64,000 nt of DNA, taken from assembly GCF_058153355.1 (NCBI RefSeq), contig NZ_CM177019.1. One strand, given 5' to 3'. A program made the translations under genes and the position numbers. Shown piece after piece: positions 33,177 to 43,692 of the stretch; the first letter of the stretch is position 1, and every line of letters starts with the position of its first letter. The notes under the pieces are model-generated. The model did no database searches. It saw only the letters and a list, made by a program, of their open reading frames with translations, and was not told the DNA's origin.

Positions 33177-34103
33177 ATGCTCCCGCCTTATTTTTTGTTC
33201 AACGAGATGACAGACACACACTATATTGGCCGCTTTGCCCCCTCTCCTTCCGGCGAGCTTCATTTTGGCTCTCTGATTGCCGCGCTTGGAAGCTTTCTAC
33301 AGGCTCGCGCCCGGCAAGGTCGCTGGCTTGTTCGCATTGAAGATATCGATCCGCCTCGTGAAGTTCCCGGTGCCGCAGAGACCATCCTGCGCCAGCTGGA
33401 ACATTACGGTTTACACTGGGACGGCGATGTTCTCTGGCAATCGCAACGTCACAACGCCTATCGCGAAGCACTCGCATGGTTACATGAGCAAGGGTTAAGT
33501 TATTACTGCACCTGCACGCGCGCACGTATTCAAAGCATTGGCGGTATTTACGACGGTCATTGCCGGGAGTTGCATCATGGGCCAGAAAACGCTGCTGTAC
33601 GTATTCGCCAGCAGCATCCGGTCACCCAGTTTACTGACCAGCTGCGCGGCATTATTCATGCCGACCAAAAACTGGCGCGGGAAGATTTTATTATTCATCG
33701 TCGTGATGGTCTATTTGCCTATAACCTGGCGGTGGTCGTTGACGATCACTACCAGGGCGTGACAGAAATTGTTCGTGGCGCGGATTTGATCGAACCCACG
33801 GTGCGCCAAATCTCGCTGTACCAGCTTTTTGGCTGGCAGGTGCCAGATTACATTCATTTGCCACTGGCACTTAATCCACAAGGCGCTAAACTTTCCAAGC
33901 AGAATCATGCGCCTGCGTTGCCAAAAGGCGATCCTCGGCCGGTGTTAATCGCGGCACTTCAATTTCTGGGCCAGCAGGCAGAAACACACTGGCAGGATTT
34001 CAGCGTCGCGCAAATTCTCCAGTCAGCCGTCAAAAACTGGCGGCTCACCGCAGTGCCTGAGTCGGCAATTGTAAATTCAACATTCTCAAATGCGTCATGC
34101 TGA
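33177..34103 (+). CDS. gluQ: glutamyl-Q tRNA(Asp) synthetase
   Basis: 308-aa [53 protein letters not shown]..., truncated GluRS-like catalytic domain; 36 nt after dksA. Confidence 0.93.
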
Positions 34104-34162
34104 GCTATGATTAGCCGCTATTTTTTTGTCCTGAATGATGTTTGACACTACCGAGGTGTACT

Positions 34163-35560
34163 ATTTTTACCCGAGTCGCTAATTTTTGCCGCAAGGTGCT
34201 AAGCCGCGAGGAAAGCGAGGCTGAACAGGCAGTCGCCCGTCCACAGGTGACGGTGATCCCGCGTGAGCAGCATGCTATTTCCCGCAAAGATATCAGTGAA
34301 AATGCCCTGAAGGTAATGTACAGGCTCAATAAAGCGGGATACGAAGCCTGGCTGGTTGGCGGCGGCGTGCGCGACCTGTTACTTGGCAAAAAGCCGAAAG
34401 ATTTTGACGTGACTACTAACGCCACGCCAGAGCAAGTGCGCAAACTGTTCCGTAACTGCCGCCTGGTGGGTCGCCGTTTCCGTCTGGCTCATGTGATGTT
34501 TGGCCCGGAGATTATCGAAGTTGCGACCTTCCGGGGACATCACGAAGGTAACGTCAGCGACCGTACGACCTCCCAACGCGGGCAAAACGGCATGTTGCTG
34601 CGCGACAACATTTTCGGTTCCATCGAAGAAGACGCCCAGCGCCGCGATTTCACTATTAATAGTCTGTATTACAGCGTGGCGGATTTTACGGTCCGCGATT
34701 ACGTTGGTGGCATGAAGGATCTGAAAGACGGCGTTATCCGTCTGATTGGTAACCCGGAAACGCGCTACCGTGAAGATCCGGTACGTATGCTGCGCGCGGT
34801 TCGTTTTGCCGCCAAATTGGGCATGCGCATCAGCCCGGAAACCGCAGAACCGATCCCACGCCTGGCAACCCTGCTAAACGATATTCCTCCGGCGCGTTTG
34901 TTTGAAGAATCTCTGAAACTGTTGCAAGCGGGCTACGGTTACGAAACCTATAAACTGCTGTGTGAATACCATCTGTTCCAGCCGCTGTTCCCGACCATTA
35001 CCCGCTACTTTACGGAAAATGGTGACAGTCCAATGGAACGGATCATTGAGCTGGTGCTGAAGAATACTGACACGCGTATTCATAACGATATGCGCGTCAA
35101 CCCGGCGTTCCTGTTTGCCGCCATGTTCTGGTATCCCCTGCTGGAAACAGCACAGAAAATCGCGCAAGAGAGCGGCCTGACTTATCACGACGCTTTCGCG
35201 CTGGCAATGAACGATGTGTTAGACGAAGCCTGCCGTTCACTGGCTATCCCGAAACGGCTAACCACTTTAACCCGTGATATCTGGCAGTTACAGTTGCGCA
35301 TGTCCCGCCGTCAGGGTAAACGCGCATGGAAATTACTCGAACATCCGAAGTTCCGCGCAGCTTATGACCTGCTGGCACTGCGTGCTGAAGTAGAACGCAA
35401 CGCCGAGCTACAACGTCTGGCGAAATGGTGGGGTGAGTTCCAGGTTTCCGCGCCGCCAGACCAAAAAGGGATGCTTAACGAACTGGATGAAGAACCGTCA
35501 CCGCGTCGTCGTACTCGTCGCCCGCGCAGACGTGCGCCGCGCCGTGAGGGCACCGCATGA
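34163..35560 (+). CDS. pcnB: poly(A) polymerase I, with non-canonical AUU initiation codon
   Basis: ORF track frame starts at TTG 34142; the known PcnB N-terminus (M)[21 protein letters not shown] begins at the ATT codon 34163-34165, giving 465 aa; stop overlaps folK start. Confidence 0.9.
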
Positions 35561-36033
35561 CAGTGGCGTATATTGCTATCGGCAGCAATCTGGCCTCTCC
35601 GCTGGAGCAGGTCAATGCTGCCCTGAAGGCAATAGATGACATTCCTGAAAGCCGCATTCTTGCCGTTTCTTCGTTTTACCGCACCCCACCGCTGGGGCCG
35701 CAAGATCAACCCGATTACTTAAACGCAGCCGTGGCGCTGGAAACCTCTCTTACAGCTGAAGAACTCCTCAACCACACACAGCGTATTGAGTTGCAGCAAG
35801 GTCGCGTCCGCAAAGCTGAACGCTGGGGACCGCGCACGCTCGATCTTGATATCATGTTGTTTGGTAATCAGGTCATAAACACTGAGCGCCTGACCGTTCC
35901 GCACTATGATATGAAGAATCGTGGATTTATGTTGTGGCCGCTGTTTGAGATCGCGCCGGAACTGGTGTTTCCTGATGGTGAAACGCTGCAAGCAAGACTC
36001 ACTACTTTCCCTCCCTGCCCACAGCACTGGTAA
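35557..36033 (+). CDS. folK: 2-amino-4-hydroxy-6-hydroxymethyldihydropteridine pyrophosphokinase (HPPK)
   Basis: 158-aa [65 protein letters not shown]...; last ~17 residues ([17 protein letters not shown]) differ from the K-12 tail as I recall it. Confidence 0.93.
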
Positions 36034-37941: not shown

Positions 37942-40548
37942 ATGAAGATCCCCCACGATGGCAAAAGAATTCAACGATCGCCGCTCGCTTGCCTGATTGC
38001 GTGTAGCCTGCTGCCCTGCACACAAAATGTGTGGGGGGCAAACGAGACCGTTGAGTTTGATAACACGTTCCTGATGGGCGCAGGCGCCAGGGATATTGAT
38101 GTCAATCGTTATAGCAAAGGTAACGCAACATTACCGGGGCGCTATGACGTTAGCGTGTTTATTAATAACCAGGCCAGCGCCAATCTGAAAATCGAGTTTA
38201 TTGAATTAGACCCTGAACACGCTGCTCAGCCCTGTATCTCCACCAACACATTATTACAACTGCATATTCGCCAGCCAGAAAAGTTAGCGGATAACGCAAT
38301 TTTGCAAAAACGCGAAAACGCTGTGCAGGATTGCCTGAACGTAGAGGTTGCTATTCCGCAATCGAGCGTCGCTTACAATAGCAACGATCAGCGGCTTGAT
38401 ATCAGCATGCCGCAAATCTGGCTGCAGAGAACCTATGCCAACTATGTCGATCCGTCGCTGTGGGATGAAGGCATCAATGCCGCAATGCTCTCTTACACCC
38501 TTAACGGCTGGCGCAGTGAATCCCCCAATCAAACCACAGAAACCAGCTACGCCGGACTGATGGGCGGTATCAATTTATGGGGATGGCATTTTCGCTCACA
38601 TGGTAACTATTCGTGGGACAAAGAAGACGGCGGCAGTTTTGAATTTCAGGATAAATATCTGCAACGCGATATCGCCGCGCTCCGCTCTCAGCTGGTAATG
38701 GGTGAAACCAATACCACAGGAGAAACCTTCGACTCGGTGCCTATTCGCGGGCTGCGACTCTATAGCGAAAGCCGCATGTTGCCCCCTACGCTGGCGTCGT
38801 ATGCGCCCGTTATCCGTGGCGTGGCAAACTCTAACGCGAAAGTCACGATCACCCAAAACGGTTATAAAATTTATGAAACGACCGTGCCGCCAGGGCCATT
38901 CGCGATTGACGATCTCACCCCGGCAGGGTTCGGCGCCGATCTCGAGGTGACCATCACCGAATCGGACGGTTCAAAGCGTACGTTTAGTCAGGCTTATTCA
39001 TCGGTGATCCAGATGATGCGTCCCGGCGTGGGCAAATGGGATATCAGCGCCGGTGAGGTCAATAAAGAGGAACTCCAGGATAAACCGAACCTGCTGCAAG
39101 GAACCTACTATTACGGGTTGAGCAACACCTTCACCGGCTACACCGGCCTGCAAATGACCGATAACGGCTACTGGGCCGGTTTATTAGGGTTGGGGGTGAA
39201 TACATCGCTGGGCGCTTTCTCCTTCGATGTTACTCAGTCTCATGCCGAAATTCCTGACGATAAAACCTATAGTGGACAGAGTTACCGTGTTTCATGGAAC
39301 AAATATTTCGCGCCTACCGAAACCTCACTCAACATTGCCGCCTATCGCTACTCCACTGAAAACTATCTGGGGCTGAACGACGCGTTGACGCTGATTAATT
39401 CTGCCAACCATCCTGATGAAGAGGGCTATTCGGGGATTGTCAGTTATGCACGCATGAAAAATCAGTTCAGCGTTAGCATTAATCAAACGTTAAAAAGTGA
39501 TGAACGTGACTATGGCTCTTTCTATGTGAATGGCACATGGACAGATTACTGGGTAACCAACTCATCACAGAGCAGTTTTGCCTTTGGCTACAGCAATGCC
39601 TTTAACTGGGCGAGCTACAGCGTCAGCCTGCAACGGACATACGATGAAGACAATAAGAAGGATGACTCGATTTATCTGAGTGTGACCATTCCGCTTGATA
39701 AACTGCTTGGCCGCGATAGCCATCAGGGCGGGTTCAAAACCCTGAATACCAGCGTTAACAGCGATATGAAAGGTAGCTCGCAATATAACACCAATGCCTC
39801 GGGCTACAGCCAGGATAATCGCTGGAGTTACAGCGTGAATACCGCCTATAACGTGCAGAAAAACAGCGACAGCCTGAAAAGTATCAGCGGTTATACCAGC
39901 TATGAGTCGCCGTGGGGAACATTTTCAGGCTCAGCCTCCACCAGCAGCGATCGCTCACGTCAGTATGGGCTCAGCACCGATGGCGGTTTTGTACTCCACC
40001 GCCACGGTCTGACCTTCAGTAACGACAGTTTTACCGACTCTGACACGTTGGCGCTGATCAACGCCCCGGGTGCAAAAGGCGCGCGCATTAACTTTGGTAA
40101 CAGCACCATCGACCGTTTTGGCTACGGCGTGACCAGTTCACTGTCACCGTACCGGGAAAATACCGTCGCGCTCGATGTTAACGATCTGGATAACGACGTG
40201 GAGCTCAAAAACACCAGTAGCGTCGCCATTCCGCGCCAGGGTTCCGTCATTTTCAGCCACTTTGACACCGATACCGGGCGCTCCGCCATTCTCAATTTAC
40301 TGCGTAGCAACAATCAGCCCGTGCCGTTTGCTTCCGATATTACCGACGAAAAAGGGACCTCTATCGGGACCGTTGGCCAGGGCAGTCAGGCATTTGTACG
40401 CGGCATTGCCGACAGCGGTGAACTGACGGTCACCTGGTATGAGAAAAATAGTCGCCAGCAGTGCCGTATTCATTATCAGATACCGTCATCACCCACCATG
40501 ACCGGTAAAACTATCGTACTCAACGCCGTGCCATGCACCCAGCAATAA
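37942..40548 (+). CDS. htrE: fimbrial outer membrane usher protein
   Basis: 868-aa ORF; usher hallmarks (FDNTFLMGAGARDIDVNRYSKGN, RGLRLYSESRMLPPTLASYAPVIRGVANSNAKVTITQNGYKIYETTVPPGPFAIDDL). Confidence 0.88.
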   Translation: MKIPHDGKRIQRSPLACLIACSLLPCTQNVWGANETVEFDNTFLMGAGARDIDVNRYSKGNATLPGRYDVSVFINNQASANLKIEFIELDPEHAAQPCISTNTLLQLHIRQPEKLADNAILQKRENAVQDCLNVEVAIPQSSVAYNSNDQRLDISMPQIWLQRTYANYVDPSLWDEGINAAMLSYTLNGWRSESPNQTTETSYAGLMGGINLWGWHFRSHGNYSWDKEDGGSFEFQDKYLQRDIAALRSQLVMGETNTTGETFDSVPIRGLRLYSESRMLPPTLASYAPVIRGVANSNAKVTITQNGYKIYETTVPPGPFAIDDLTPAGFGADLEVTITESDGSKRTFSQAYSSVIQMMRPGVGKWDISAGEVNKEELQDKPNLLQGTYYYGLSNTFTGYTGLQMTDNGYWAGLLGLGVNTSLGAFSFDVTQSHAEIPDDKTYSGQSYRVSWNKYFAPTETSLNIAAYRYSTENYLGLNDALTLINSANHPDEEGYSGIVSYARMKNQFSVSINQTLKSDERDYGSFYVNGTWTDYWVTNSSQSSFAFGYSNAFNWASYSVSLQRTYDEDNKKDDSIYLSVTIPLDKLLGRDSHQGGFKTLNTSVNSDMKGSSQYNTNASGYSQDNRWSYSVNTAYNVQKNSDSLKSISGYTSYESPWGTFSGSASTSSDRSRQYGLSTDGGFVLHRHGLTFSNDSFTDSDTLALINAPGAKGARINFGNSTIDRFGYGVTSSLSPYRENTVALDVNDLDNDVELKNTSSVAIPRQGSVIFSHFDTDTGRSAILNLLRSNNQPVPFASDITDEKGTSIGTVGQGSQAFVRGIADSGELTVTWYEKNSRQQCRIHYQIPSSPTMTGKTIVLNAVPCTQQ

Positions 40549-40564
40549 TGTTCCAGGAGAGGAA

Positions 40565-41134
40565 ATGAGAGCTTTTTTACTACCGCCCCTGCTGCTGACG
40601 TCGCTTTGTCTGCGCCCCGCACTGGCAACCGATCTTTCGGTGAACTTTACCGCGACCATCAAAGAGACGACCTGTGCCATGACGCTCAACGCATTGAATG
40701 GGGCCAGTATCAGCGGTGATACCGCAACGAATAGCTATTATCTGGATCTGCCTGATATGGGCGTTTCGGACATTGTGAATAAATCGTCAATGTCAGAGGC
40801 TAATTTTAAAATCCTTCCCAGCAATTGTAATAACTATATTTCCGGCCTGTCGATGACTCTCAATGGCGCAGTCAGCAGCTATACAGATTCGTTAATCGGT
40901 AATGACCAGACCGTTTCCGGACATACCAACTATGTTGGTCTTGGTATTAAACGTATGAACACTGATGAAAACCTCCGCTTTAAACTCAACGGTAGCCAGC
41001 GAATCACCTGGACGAATGATGAAATAAGTAATGGATTAGATCTCACAGCCATGCTTCGTCAGACCACCACCGGGAATACGATCACCACAGGCCAATTCCA
41101 GGCCAAAGTAACTTTCGTCTTTACCTACCAATAG
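40565..41134 (+). CDS. yadM: fimbrial minor subunit
   Basis: 189-aa ORF with signal peptide and C-terminal VTFVFTYQ. Confidence 0.8.
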   Translation: MRAFLLPPLLLTSLCLRPALATDLSVNFTATIKETTCAMTLNALNGASISGDTATNSYYLDLPDMGVSDIVNKSSMSEANFKILPSNCNNYISGLSMTLNGAVSSYTDSLIGNDQTVSGHTNYVGLGIKRMNTDENLRFKLNGSQRITWTNDEISNGLDLTAMLRQTTTGNTITTGQFQAKVTFVFTYQ

Positions 41135-41145
41135 CAGGTTTGTTT

Positions 41146-41742
41146 ATGAATTATCACAATATAACCTTTGTCTTGCTGCTGTGCTTTGGATATATCTCCA
41201 TCGGCCACGCCGCCAGTAGCTCTATGGACGTTACGGTACGCGCTAAGGTTACTGCCAGTACCTGCACGGCGGAATTACGCAATGCGCAGGATCAGCAAGC
41301 CACCACCATCGCTATTGGCGATGTCTATCTCAACGAGCTTTCCGCTAAATCGAAATACCAAAACTTCAGCCTGGTGTTTTCAAACTGCGAAGGGTTAGCA
41401 AAGGATCAGGCAAAAGTTGTGCTTTCTGCACAGACGGGCTGCGATGGTGCTTCCAGTACCGGTGGCGGATACCGTAATGCACTGACGACAGCGGACGATG
41501 ATGCGGCAACCGGTGTTGCAGTTGAAGTGTGGACGACCAACCAGCCAGAAGGTCAGGGCAGCATTCAGCTTAATTGTAAAACCAAACCAACCAGTATTGT
41601 CGATTTAGCCACGGCTACAGGCTCGAATATTGTCCACTGGCCGCTCAGTGCCCGAATTGTTGTCGCATCGGATAATACCATCGCGGATGTCCGTGCAGGT
41701 CAATTCTCCACCAATGCTATCTTTTCTGTAACCTATGAGTAG
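41146..41742 (+). CDS. yadL: fimbrial minor subunit
   Basis: ATG at 41146 (track frame begins at TTG 41140); signal peptide, C-terminal AIFSVTYE. Confidence 0.8.
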   Translation: MNYHNITFVLLLCFGYISIGHAASSSMDVTVRAKVTASTCTAELRNAQDQQATTIAIGDVYLNELSAKSKYQNFSLVFSNCEGLAKDQAKVVLSAQTGCDGASSTGGGYRNALTTADDDAATGVAVEVWTTNQPEGQGSIQLNCKTKPTSIVDLATATGSNIVHWPLSARIVVASDNTIADVRAGQFSTNAIFSVTYE

Positions 41743-42315
41743 ATGATGATGAAAACAGTTATCTACATGATTGCGTTTTGGTTTTCTTACAACGCCATTG
41801 CAGCCAGTACCAATATTAATATGACTGCCAATATCATCAGCACCAGTTGCCGGGTCACGCTCGACAATAATGGAAATATTGATTTAGGCACAGTGGATTA
41901 TAGCTATCTGAATAATAATACCTCTGTCGATCGCGTCTATTCTGGCGGGCACCCCTTTTATATTACCGTCAGCGACTGCGCGCAGGTAGCGGGGAAAAAT
42001 CCGGCCCACCTGACCGTCAGCTTTACGCCTTTGGCAGGCACCCTTGCGCCAACCAACCTCCAGGTATTCGCCAACCAGCAGGTCAACGGTGCAAAAAATG
42101 TCGGCGTGGTTATTTTATCGACCGAGGACGCTCAGCATATTTTCAATGTGCTCGACACGCGTGGTCAACCGCAAAGTATTTACCCCGTGACGCCCGAAAC
42201 GATCGCTAACGCGACATACCACTTTTACGCTCGGATGCAAAAAATTGACCCTACACAAGCGGTAACCAGCGGCGTGGTAAAAGCGAGCGTATTTGTTGGG
42301 GTTTATTATGAATAA
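41743..42315 (+). CDS. yadK: fimbrial minor subunit
   Basis: 190-aa ORF MMMKTVIYMIAFWFSYNAIAA..., C-terminal VFVGVYYE; three consecutive ATG codons make the exact start ambiguous. Confidence 0.8.
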   Translation: MMMKTVIYMIAFWFSYNAIAASTNINMTANIISTSCRVTLDNNGNIDLGTVDYSYLNNNTSVDRVYSGGHPFYITVSDCAQVAGKNPAHLTVSFTPLAGTLAPTNLQVFANQQVNGAKNVGVVILSTEDAQHIFNVLDTRGQPQSIYPVTPETIANATYHFYARMQKIDPTQAVTSGVVKASVFVGVYYE

Positions 42316-42341
42316 TCTATATCACTCTCAAGGATGAAGAG

Positions 42342-43574
42342 ATGAACACGCAATTTTTTTCCCGGTCTAAACGGTGGTGTCGAACACTGCTGGTTCTGTT
42401 GTCCTTCTATTCAGGCTGCCTGCACTCTGCCAACACAATTATCGTCGGCAACAAAACCTATTCAGGCTCGACGGAAAGTAATTCCGGTCCACAGGGGGAT
42501 GGCAGCGCAACGGCAACGTTCAGCACAGGAGCAAACCAGATAGTGATCCCAACCTCCGCGGGGCTACAAAGTAGCAACATCAGGCTCCAGTTGGGCTGGG
42601 TGGATACGGGTTCATTAGGCAATGCCCTGATTTACTGTGGAGCTGGTGGAATGGGAACGCCTTTAACCCTGGAGAGCCATTTCGTTGATGCTCTGGTGAG
42701 TGCAGATGGCCACAAGCTCTTTAAAACCAATGTGCAGGGTCTCTACTTCAGGATGCACATGTACAGTGTAAGCTCATTCAAAACAACATCCAGCAGCGAT
42801 ATCTATATCGGTGACCCCCCCCAACAAACACTGACCTTAACGCCCGAGAATTCCGTATGCGTCGCCGATCTGGGGAAATACACAGCCATAGGCGGTCTGG
42901 TCAGTAAAATTGATATTGAGTTTTATAATGATGGAACCTTCAATCCCAATACGACAGGTAGCATCGCTTTACTGAGCAACAAGGGATATCACTATTCAGT
43001 GACAAATGCAGCGCCTGGTGGTGCATTGACCTCGCACTATATTTATCAGACGTTCAATATGGGTAATGTGACGCTTAGCTCGCCTACCTGTACCTCAGCG
43101 GTCGTTTCGGGGAATACAGTTAAGGGAGATACCGTCAGTCTCGGTGAATATAACCCCAAAGATATCCTTGATGGCGTTGACGGCATCCCTTTTGGTATAG
43201 CACTAAAGAACTGTTACCGGGTCACCAATATCGAGGTCAAAATGACTACCGGCGCCCCTGCAATGTCGGCTGCGTTATTGGGTAATTCGTTAACCGCCGA
43301 GGCCAATGCCGCCAACGGCGTAGGCGTGGAGATAAAAGGAAAATCGAACTCACATTATGCCGAGGTTGTTCTTCACCCTAATGACACCCATTCTGTTTAT
43401 AAAGCCTATGTCGATACAGCTGACACGTCGAATGGCATTATTGGTTCAGGCACATCGGGAACCGCAGCAAATCAAACGCTAAATTTTGTTGCCACCCTCA
43501 AACAAGACAACAATCAACAAATCAGAGGCGGGGATTTCAAAGCGACCGCCGTTTTCTCTATCACCTACCCATGA
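42342..43574 (+). CDS. yadC: fimbrial tip adhesin-like protein
   Basis: 410-aa ORF, signal peptide, two-domain size typical of tip adhesins, C-terminal AVFSITYP pilin fold; last gene of operon. Confidence 0.8.
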   Translation: MNTQFFSRSKRWCRTLLVLLSFYSGCLHSANTIIVGNKTYSGSTESNSGPQGDGSATATFSTGANQIVIPTSAGLQSSNIRLQLGWVDTGSLGNALIYCGAGGMGTPLTLESHFVDALVSADGHKLFKTNVQGLYFRMHMYSVSSFKTTSSSDIYIGDPPQQTLTLTPENSVCVADLGKYTAIGGLVSKIDIEFYNDGTFNPNTTGSIALLSNKGYHYSVTNAAPGGALTSHYIYQTFNMGNVTLSSPTCTSAVVSGNTVKGDTVSLGEYNPKDILDGVDGIPFGIALKNCYRVTNIEVKMTTGAPAMSAALLGNSLTAEANAANGVGVEIKGKSNSHYAEVVLHPNDTHSVYKAYVDTADTSNGIIGSGTSGTAANQTLNFVATLKQDNNQQIRGGDFKATAVFSITYP

Positions 43575-43583
43575 GCCCCGCTA

Positions 43584-43608
43584 CCGGCAGGCCCCCCTGC
43601 CGGTTTTG
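43584..43608 (+). terminator. intrinsic terminator of the yad operon
   Basis: ccggcagg-cccc-cctgccgg hairpin followed by TTTTG, 10 nt after yadC stop. Confidence 0.75.
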
Positions 43609-43692
43609 ACCATAAAGGGCTAACACTCATCACTGACATCCCCTACAATGCGCCAATCCTATAGATAACACTTATGACTAACAGGGGTTATG

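What the first reader, a model, noticed from the sequence alone, without database searches (positions are those of the whole stretch)
34142..34166. pcnB retains the non-canonical AUU start codon
The only in-frame ATG/GTG/TTG near the 5' end is a TTG at 34142, but the conserved PcnB N-terminus ([10 protein letters not shown]...) begins at the ATT codon 34163-34165. This is the rare AUU initiation described for E. coli pcnB, which limits poly(A) polymerase levels. Automated callers will mis-start this gene.
Basis: partly seen in the sequence, partly recalled or inferred. Interest (0 to 1): 0.3.

Follow-up and report, generated by a model that had tools for sequence, protein, structure and literature searches.

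The report
pcnB's known AUU start codon

Summary
An in-frame ATT lies at 34163-34165, immediately before the invariant peptide [10 protein letters not shown]. It sits 6 nt after the GAGG core (4 nt after the full GAGGTG hexamer), the only good Shine-Dalgarno near the 5' end. An in-frame TGA lies at 34136-34138 and a TTG at 34142.

In 80 species-level Enterobacteriaceae genomes the ATT, the GAGGTG and the peptide [12 protein letters not shown] never vary. Variation in codons 2-12 is third-position only, while the 7 codons upstream vary at all three positions and carry stops in some species. In 43 of 80 species there is no upstream in-frame ATG/GTG/TTG at all. Window 34059-34410 is identical to K-12, where AUU initiation was reported experimentally (Binns & Masters 2002, read here only through citing papers).

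Two details need correction. A GTG at 34196 (codon 12) is also in frame, and ab initio callers usually pick it. RefSeq/PGAP already starts pcnB at the ATT. No experiment covers this strain.

Novelty: already known. Interest is low.

One side observation is unexplained: nucleotide-level conservation around the start is unusually strong.

The parts
33207..34103 (+). gluQRS (tRNA glutamyl-Q34 synthetase), the upstream neighbour. Its 3' end overlaps the pcnB promoter region.
   Evidence: The RefSeq CDS in the 99.1%-identical genome EC42405 maps to these window coordinates. ORF.
34083..34111 (+). Sigma-70-like promoter match, TTCTCA-17 nt-TATGAT. It is probably the published major promoter pB (inferred, not verified).
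   Evidence: It is the only promoter-like match in 33800-34400 (shuffles give a mean of 0.5). The sequence is identical in K-12. PMC2939334 describes pB upstream of the ATT, but its figure was not readable.
34136..34138 (+). In-frame TGA that closes the pcnB reading frame upstream.
   Evidence: Sequence read. 'open_up_codons 8'.
34142..34144 (+). In-frame TTG, 7 codons upstream of the ATT. It is a decoy start with no SD and is not conserved.
   Evidence: Anti-SD duplex is +0.4 kcal/mol. A TTG at -7 is present in only 26 of 80 species. 43 of 80 have no upstream canonical start. The seven upstream codons vary at all three codon positions (5,5,5) and carry stops in some species.
34153..34158 (+). 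Shine-Dalgarno GAGGTG. The GAGG core ends 6 nt before the ATT.
   Evidence: Invariant in 79/79 genomes. Duplex with the 16S 3' end is -7.2 kcal/mol, in the top 1.7% of window 20-mers.
34163..34165 (+). ATT (AUU) initiation codon of pcnB.
   Evidence: ATT in all 84 sequences compared (the window, three E. coli genomes and 80 species loci). It is the only fixed codon among the 14 invariant Ile positions. The RefSeq CDS start maps here. NF008634 profile position 1 aligns here. Literature support.
34163..35560 (+). pcnB coding sequence, 465 codons plus TGA (poly(A) polymerase I).
   Evidence: It is nearly identical, with 2 substitutions over residues 28-442, to the E. coli PAP I crystal constructs 3AQK/3AQL/3AQM.
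34196..34198 (+). In-frame GTG (Val12). It is the start chosen by many ab initio annotations (454-aa form) and has no SD.
   Evidence: Codons 2-11 upstream of it show only synonymous variation, so they are translated.
34316..34318 (+). ATG for Met52, inferred here to be the AUG proposed as the start by Liu & Parkinson in 1989. It is a possible minor internal start downstream of the sigma-S promoter pS1.
   Evidence: PMC2939334 discussion. The paper's figure was not readable; the assignment to Met52 rests on my recollection of the size of the protein predicted in 1989. The SD is weak (-3.9 kcal/mol) with zero spacing. Codons 41-43 just upstream are codon-invariant.
35557..36033 (+). folK. Its ATG overlaps the pcnB stop (ATGA at 35557-35560).

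Best explanation
pcnB in this Escherichia genome is translated from the AUU codon at 34163-34165, positioned by the GAGGUG Shine-Dalgarno at 34153-34158. It gives the 465-residue poly(A) polymerase I that begins fMet-Phe-Thr-Arg-Val.

AUU pairs imperfectly with initiator tRNA and is discriminated against by IF3, so initiation is inefficient. This keeps PAP I, which is toxic when overproduced, at a few tens of molecules per cell.

Shown here:
- The sequence anatomy.
- Identity of the start region to K-12.
- Invariance of the ATT and SD across 80 Enterobacteriaceae species.
- A coding signature that starts exactly at the ATT.

Taken from the literature on K-12: AUU is the start used, and it limits expression.

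Inferred: the same holds in this strain, and IF3 is the discriminating factor for pcnB.
For: Anatomy:
- ATT is in frame directly before [10 protein letters not shown], and GAGGTG lies upstream.
- Anti-SD binding is -7.2 kcal/mol for ATT, against +0.4 for TTG and +0.5 for GTG.

Comparative evidence:
- ATT in all 84 sequences compared, i.e. the window, three E. coli genomes and 80 species loci.
- GAGGTG in 79/79 genomes.
- [12 protein letters not shown] in 80/80 species.
- Variable sites by codon position are 0,0,5 in codons 2-12 and 5,5,5 in codons -7 to -1.
- 43 of 80 species lack any upstream in-frame canonical start, and in some the nearest in-frame stop is only 5 codons upstream.
- Only 13 of 272 amino-acid-invariant degenerate codons are nucleotide-invariant, and 7 of those lie in codons 1-12, including the ATT.

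Population: the 63 nt at 34136-34198 are 100% identical in 5416 of 5424 complete E. coli genomes. The one variant examined changes position -2, not the ATT.

Transfer from K-12: there are no mismatches over 34059-34410.

Curation:
- The RefSeq CDS starts at the ATT.
- NF008634 profile position 1 aligns to the ATT codon.

Literature:
- PMC2939334, PMC3561954, PMC5499595 and bioRxiv 10.1101/063800 all attribute AUU initiation and limited PAP I synthesis to Binns & Masters 2002.
- PMC3561954 also gives about 30-50 PAP I molecules per cell, citing Mohanty et al. 2004.
Against: - There is no direct evidence for this strain: no N-terminal sequence and no ribosome profiling.
- The primary paper (Binns & Masters 2002) is not held in the library, so its experiments are known only through its title and citing papers.
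- Nucleotide conservation of codons 1-12 is so high that protein-level and RNA-level constraint are hard to separate. Only 5 variable sites carry the coding signal.
- PMC2939334 raises the possibility of a second, shorter PAP I form made from an internal AUG. That would make AUU the main start rather than the only one.
Confidence: 0.93

Rival explanations
1. Translation starts at the upstream UUG (34142), giving a 472-residue protein, [12 protein letters not shown]... The ATT would then be an ordinary internal isoleucine codon.
For: - TTG is the first canonical start in the open frame.
- It lies on any transcript from the predicted promoter.
- The 472-aa form of this exact protein is in NCBI records.
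- 18 of 134 retrieved database entries use this position.
- Salmonella arizonae and diarizonae even have ATG there.
Against: - There is no SD (+0.4 kcal/mol).
- A TTG or ATG at -7 is present in only 28 of 80 species, and 43 of 80 have no upstream canonical start.
- The seven codons vary at all three codon positions and contain stops in some species.
- The curated NF008634 profile and RefSeq both start at the ATT.
- The K-12 literature places the start at AUU.
Confidence: 0.03
2. Translation starts mainly, or in addition, at a downstream canonical codon. The candidates are GUG 34196 (454 aa) and AUG 34316 (Met52, 414 aa, from the internal sigma-S promoter pS1).
For: - GTG 34196 is invariant in all 84 sequences compared, i.e. 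the window, three E. coli genomes and 80 species loci, and is the commonest ab initio call.
- PMC2939334 reports that pS1 is active under special conditions, and that two anti-PAP I bands on western blots could be AUU- and AUG-initiated forms.
- Codons 41-50 show raised third-position conservation (0.91).
Against: - GTG 34196 has no SD (+0.5 kcal/mol).
- Codons 2-11 are amino-acid-invariant in 80 species with only synonymous changes, so they are translated.
- ATG 34316 has a weak SD at zero spacing.
- According to PMC2939334, pS1 is active only in stationary phase without ppGpp, and the authors themselves call the short form unproven.
Confidence: 0.04

Closest known systems
E. coli K-12 pcnB (b0143; protein WP_010723084.1, 465 aa), AUU-initiated (Binns & Masters 2002, Mol Microbiol 44:1287)
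   Same: - Orthologous gene in the same gluQRS-pcnB-folK context.
- Identical DNA over 34059-34410, covering the candidate promoter, 5' UTR, SD, ATT and the first 82 codons.
- Same CDS start in RefSeq.
   Different: The rest of the gene is about 8% divergent at the DNA level. There are a few amino-acid substitutions, for example Q to L and V to A in the stretch aligned to the crystal construct. Nothing differs in the start region.
infC (IF3) AUU start codon, the first chromosomal AUU start found in E. coli
   Same: It uses a non-canonical AUU read by initiator tRNA to hold expression down.
   Different: infC is autoregulated, because IF3 itself discriminates against AUU. For pcnB a feedback loop is not known. 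According to PMC5499595, infC uses AUU or AUC in different bacteria, whereas pcnB showed only ATT in the 80 species examined here.

Membership tests
PcnB / poly(A) polymerase I (NCBIfam NF008634 equivalog) | Full-length match above the curated cut-off. | tested here: met
   995.4 bits against a cut-off of 702. Residues 8-471 of the TTG-form align to profile positions 1-468 of 469. The protein is nearly identical to E. coli PAP I crystal constructs 3AQK/3AQL/3AQM over residues 28-442.
PcnB / poly(A) polymerase I (NCBIfam NF008634 equivalog) | Conserved enterobacterial synteny gluQRS-pcnB-folK. | tested here: met
AUU-initiated pcnB (as described for E. coli K-12) | ATT at the codon homologous to the K-12 start, with the same SD and spacing. 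| tested here: met
   The start region is identical to K-12 DH1. The RefSeq start maps to 34163.
AUU-initiated pcnB (as described for E. coli K-12) | The coding signature (synonymous-only variation, no stops) begins at the ATT and not upstream of it. | tested here: met
   Variable sites by codon position are 0,0,5 against 5,5,5. Some species have upstream stops. 43 of 80 species have no upstream canonical start.
AUU-initiated pcnB (as described for E. coli K-12) | A protein N-terminus or initiating ribosome mapped to the AUU in this organism. | not testable with these tools
   This needs N-terminal proteomics or initiation-arrest ribosome profiling. The primary K-12 paper is not held in the library.
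AUU-initiated pcnB (as described for E. coli K-12) | AUU limits expression (an AUU-to-AUG change raises PAP I and causes toxicity). | not testable with these tools
   Reported for K-12 by citing papers. Not testable in silico.
IF3-discriminated non-canonical start (infC type) | Initiation efficiency at the AUU depends on the IF3 level. | not tested
   This is an inference from general knowledge of IF3 discrimination. No pcnB-specific data were retrieved.

The most novel reading that the evidence does not exclude
The block around the start is conserved far beyond what an SD plus an AUU needs. The -10 to +36 stretch is almost invariant across 80 species, and 352 nt are identical to K-12 in a background that is 7.6% divergent. 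This could reflect an uncharacterised cis-acting RNA or DNA element that tunes initiation at the AUU or pcnB transcription. Candidates include a binding site for a protein or sRNA, or a requirement for an unstructured U-rich landing pad. If so, PAP I control would not rest on start-codon weakness alone.
Probability: 0.2. Interest if true: 0.35.

Novelty: already known. Interest (0 to 1): 0.08.

Why it matters
The value is practical. PAP I dosage affects RNA decay, plasmid copy number and, in Shigella, virulence-plasmid maintenance (PMC12779154). A correct start therefore matters for expression constructs, proteomics databases and comparative work.

About 60% of the PcnB entries sampled from public databases carry a wrong N-terminus, most often truncated at Val12. 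Current RefSeq annotation is right.

Biologically nothing new is learned. The AUU start of pcnB has been textbook knowledge since 2002, and conservation in other Proteobacteria was already noted in that work, according to PMC3561954.

Tried and rejected
1. An SD-sequestering hairpin (CG-GGUG pairing with UACC-CG, AUU in the loop) was proposed by the consensus fold.
- 0 of 9 pairs show covariation.
- Energies of -4 to -5.5 kcal/mol are no better than shuffles, with z from about -0.55 to +0.62.
- The wider leader folds less well than shuffles, with z of +0.8 to +1.5.
- Rejected as unsupported.

2. An antisense ORF at 34111-34443 (110 aa) nearly coincides with the conserved block. It carries 1-5 in-frame stops in 74 of 80 species. 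It is not a gene.

3. A known RNA family at the locus: no Rfam match at E <= 1 in 33600-34900.

4. Recent recombination as the cause of the 352-nt identity. E. albertii, E. whittamii and two other Escherichia species show the same local drop in divergence, so it is not a single recent transfer. The cause remains open.

5. The window as E. albertii. The tblastn 'best segment' figure was 100%, but DNA identity is only 91%. The nearest genome is E. coli EC42405 at 99.1%.

6. I tried to read Binns & Masters 2002 directly, but it is not held.

7. I searched for genome-wide start-site mapping papers that mention pcnB and found none useful.

8. I did not extend the comparison beyond Enterobacteriaceae. 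The single genome-contig scan returned only the 80 best loci, all from that family.

Full report
**What is in the sequence**

On the + strand the reading frame of the large ORF 34142..35560 opens after an in-frame TGA at 34136-38. Its first canonical start codon is TTG at 34142-44. Seven codons later comes ATT at 34163-65, followed by TTT ACC CGA GTC GCT AAT TTT TGC CGC AAG, which encodes [10 protein letters not shown]. The hexamer GAGGTG lies at 34153-58, and its GAGG core ends 6 nt before the ATT.

One statement is not correct. TTG 34142 is not the only in-frame ATG/GTG/TTG near the 5' end, because GTG at 34196-98 (Val12) is also in frame.

**What the gene is**

- The product matches the NCBIfam equivalog NF008634 (PcnB) at 995 bits against a cut-off of 702.
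- Over residues 28-442 it is nearly identical to the E. coli poly(A) polymerase I crystal constructs 3AQK/3AQL/3AQM.
- Its neighbours are sfsA, dksA and gluQRS upstream and folK downstream, which is the E. coli arrangement.
- The folK ATG overlaps the pcnB stop (ATGA at 35557-60).

**Which organism**

The pcnB region is about 93% identical to most of 5424 complete E. coli genomes and 99.1% identical to E. coli EC42405. It is only 91% identical at the DNA level to E. albertii. The left 24 kb of the window is about 97% identical to typical E. coli and the right 24 kb about 94.5%. The source is a divergent E. coli-labelled lineage.

**Is the ATT the start? Evidence within the sequence**

Pairing of the 16S 3' end to the 20 nt upstream of each candidate start gives the following.

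| Candidate | Anti-SD duplex (kcal/mol) | Note |
|---|---|---|
| ATT 34163 | -7.2 | top 1.7% of all 20-mers in the window |
| TTG 34142 | +0.4 | no SD |
| GTG 34196 | +0.5 | no SD |
| ATG 34316 (Met52) | -3.9 | zero spacing |

Only the ATT has a ribosome-binding site.

**Comparative evidence**

A scan of one genome per species returned 80 Enterobacteriaceae loci. Anchoring each on the conserved N-terminal peptide gives these results.

- The start codon is ATT in all 80 species loci, and also in the window and in three E. coli genomes.
- GAGGTG at -10 to -5 is invariant in 79/79 genomes.
- The peptide [12 protein letters not shown] is invariant in 80/80 species.
- In codons 2-12 the variable sites fall 0, 0 and 5 at codon positions 1, 2 and 3, which is purely synonymous variation.
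- In the seven codons upstream of the ATT they fall 5, 5 and 5. These codons give 26 different 'translations', several containing stop codons.
- A TTG at -7 exists in only 26 species and an ATG in two Salmonella subspecies.
- 43 of 80 species have no in-frame ATG/GTG/TTG between the nearest upstream stop and the ATT, and in some that stop is only five codons away.

The 5' edge of the coding signature therefore falls exactly on the ATT. This excludes the TTG as a conserved start. It also shows that codons 2-11 are translated, which excludes GTG 34196 as the main start.

The fixation of ATT is itself unusual. Of 272 amino-acid-invariant degenerate codons, only 13 are nucleotide-invariant. Of 14 invariant isoleucine positions, only codon 1 is fixed, and the other 13 switch between ATT and ATC.

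Within E. coli, the 63 nt at 34136-34198 are 100% identical in 5416 of 5424 complete genomes. The one variant inspected changes position -2 and keeps the ATT.

**Link to experiment**

The window is identical to K-12 (DH1) over 34059-34410. This covers the candidate promoter, the leader, the SD, the ATT and 82 codons. The K-12 literature therefore transfers at the sequence level.

- Four papers read here state that pcnB translation starts at a non-canonical AUU and that this limits PAP I synthesis. All cite Binns & Masters 2002: PMC2939334, PMC3561954, PMC5499595 and bioRxiv 10.1101/063800.
- The last of these states that infC and pcnB are the only two confirmed non-canonical starts in E. coli.
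- PMC3561954 adds that PAP I is present at about 30-50 molecules per cell, that its overproduction is lethal, and that Binns & Masters already noted probable AUU starts in PAP I homologues of many Proteobacteria.
- The primary paper itself is not in the library, so its experiments are known here only second-hand.

**Mechanism**

The SD places the 30S subunit so that AUU sits in the P site. AUU mismatches the initiator anticodon at the third position and is discriminated against by IF3, so initiation is infrequent and PAP I stays scarce.

- Shown here: the anatomy and its evolutionary fixation.
- Taken from the literature: the use of AUU and its limiting effect in K-12.
- Inferred: the same holds in this strain, and IF3 has this role at this particular gene.

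**Annotation claim**

This is half right.

- The exact protein of this window exists in public collections in three lengths. The 472-aa form (TTG) is in NCBI submissions, the 465-aa form (ATT) is in NCBI, and the 454-aa form (GTG) comes from Logan assemblies. Cluster relatives of the 454-aa form carry Prokka-style names.
- Among 134 PcnB entries retrieved, 54 start at the ATT, 18 at -7, about 36 at the Val12 GTG and about 22 further downstream.
- The usual error is thus truncation, not the upstream TTG.
- RefSeq/PGAP places the start on the ATT in every genome inspected. The curated NF008634 profile begins at that residue.

**Rivals**

- TTG start: about 3%, for the reasons given above.
- A downstream start, either instead of or in addition to the AUU: about 4%. 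PMC2939334 shows that the internal sigma-S promoter pS1 is active only in stationary phase without ppGpp. It speculates that a shorter PAP I could be made from the internal AUG proposed by Liu & Parkinson, which I infer to be Met52 (34316 here). The authors call this unproven.

**Side observations**

Nucleotide-level conservation around the start is striking.

- Third-position identity across 79 genomes is 0.95 in codons 1-10 and 0.91 in codons 41-50, against roughly 0.70 elsewhere in the gene.
- The 352-nt mismatch-free run against K-12 lies in sequence that is 7.6% divergent, where the median run is 5 nt and the next longest is 74 nt.
- In the K-12, H22 and four other Escherichia genomes compared, the first 83 codons differ from the window at 0-7 of 249 sites, against 84-148 per 1000 in the rest of the gene. 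The effect fades in Citrobacter and Salmonella and is absent in Enterobacter and Raoultella.

I tested three explanations, and none holds:

- An SD-sequestering hairpin: no covariation, and energy no better than shuffles.
- An antisense ORF at 34111-34443: broken by stops in 74 of 80 species.
- A known RNA family: no Rfam match.

The leader is, if anything, selected to be unstructured (z of +0.8 to +1.5). The published cluster of promoters (p1, pB, p2, pS1, pS2; PMC2939334) may account for part of the conservation. The rest is unexplained.

**Verdict**

The phenomenon is already known and already encoded in reference annotation. Interest is low (0.08). The only residual lead is the unexplained depth of nucleotide conservation around the start.

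Noticed in passing
window 34059-34410: A 352-nt run has no mismatch to E. coli K-12 DH1, in a region that is otherwise 7.6% divergent (median identical run 5 nt, next longest 74). In the K-12, H22 and four other Escherichia genomes compared, pcnB codons 1-83 differ from the window at 0-7 of 249 sites, against 84-148 per 1000 in the rest of the gene. The effect is weaker in Citrobacter and Salmonella and absent in Enterobacter and Raoultella. The cause is unknown.
   Followed up: partly
window 34283-34318 (pcnB codons 41-52): There is a second island of synonymous-site conservation. Third-position identity is 0.91 across 79 genomes, and codons 41-43 are nucleotide-invariant. It lies just upstream of the Met52 ATG, in the area where PMC2939334 places the internal sigma-S promoter pS1 and the AUG proposed in 1989.
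   Followed up: partly
L023:1480-1503 and L024:1480-1503 (Salmonella enterica subsp. diarizonae and arizonae): These genomes have ATG instead of TTG seven codons upstream of the conserved ATT, with no SD. The commonest Salmonella database form is 472 aa (P0027, cluster of 2921 members). The start used in Salmonella may deserve its own check.
   Followed up: no
window 35557-35560: The pcnB stop and the folK start overlap as ATGA, which suggests translational coupling of folK to the weakly translated pcnB.
   Followed up: no
window 1-24000, 33900-35700 and 40000-64000: Divergence from typical E. coli is mosaic: about 97%, 93% and 94.5% identity respectively. The first ~3.7 kb of the third stretch (about 40000-43690, fimbrial genes) is missing from most of the genomes listed. 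The nearest complete genome is E. coli EC42405 (bovine, France) at 98-99% throughout.
   Followed up: partly
window 34111-34443, minus strand: A 110-codon antisense ORF almost coincides with the conserved block. It is interrupted by 1-5 stops in 74 of 80 related species, so it is a chance ORF.
   Followed up: yes
public protein databases (P0001-P0134): Only 54 of 134 retrieved PcnB entries begin at the ATT. About 58 are truncated, starting at the Val12 GTG or later, and about 22 are extended upstream (18 of them from the TTG/ATG at -7). This is a systematic annotation inconsistency outside RefSeq/PGAP.
   Followed up: yes
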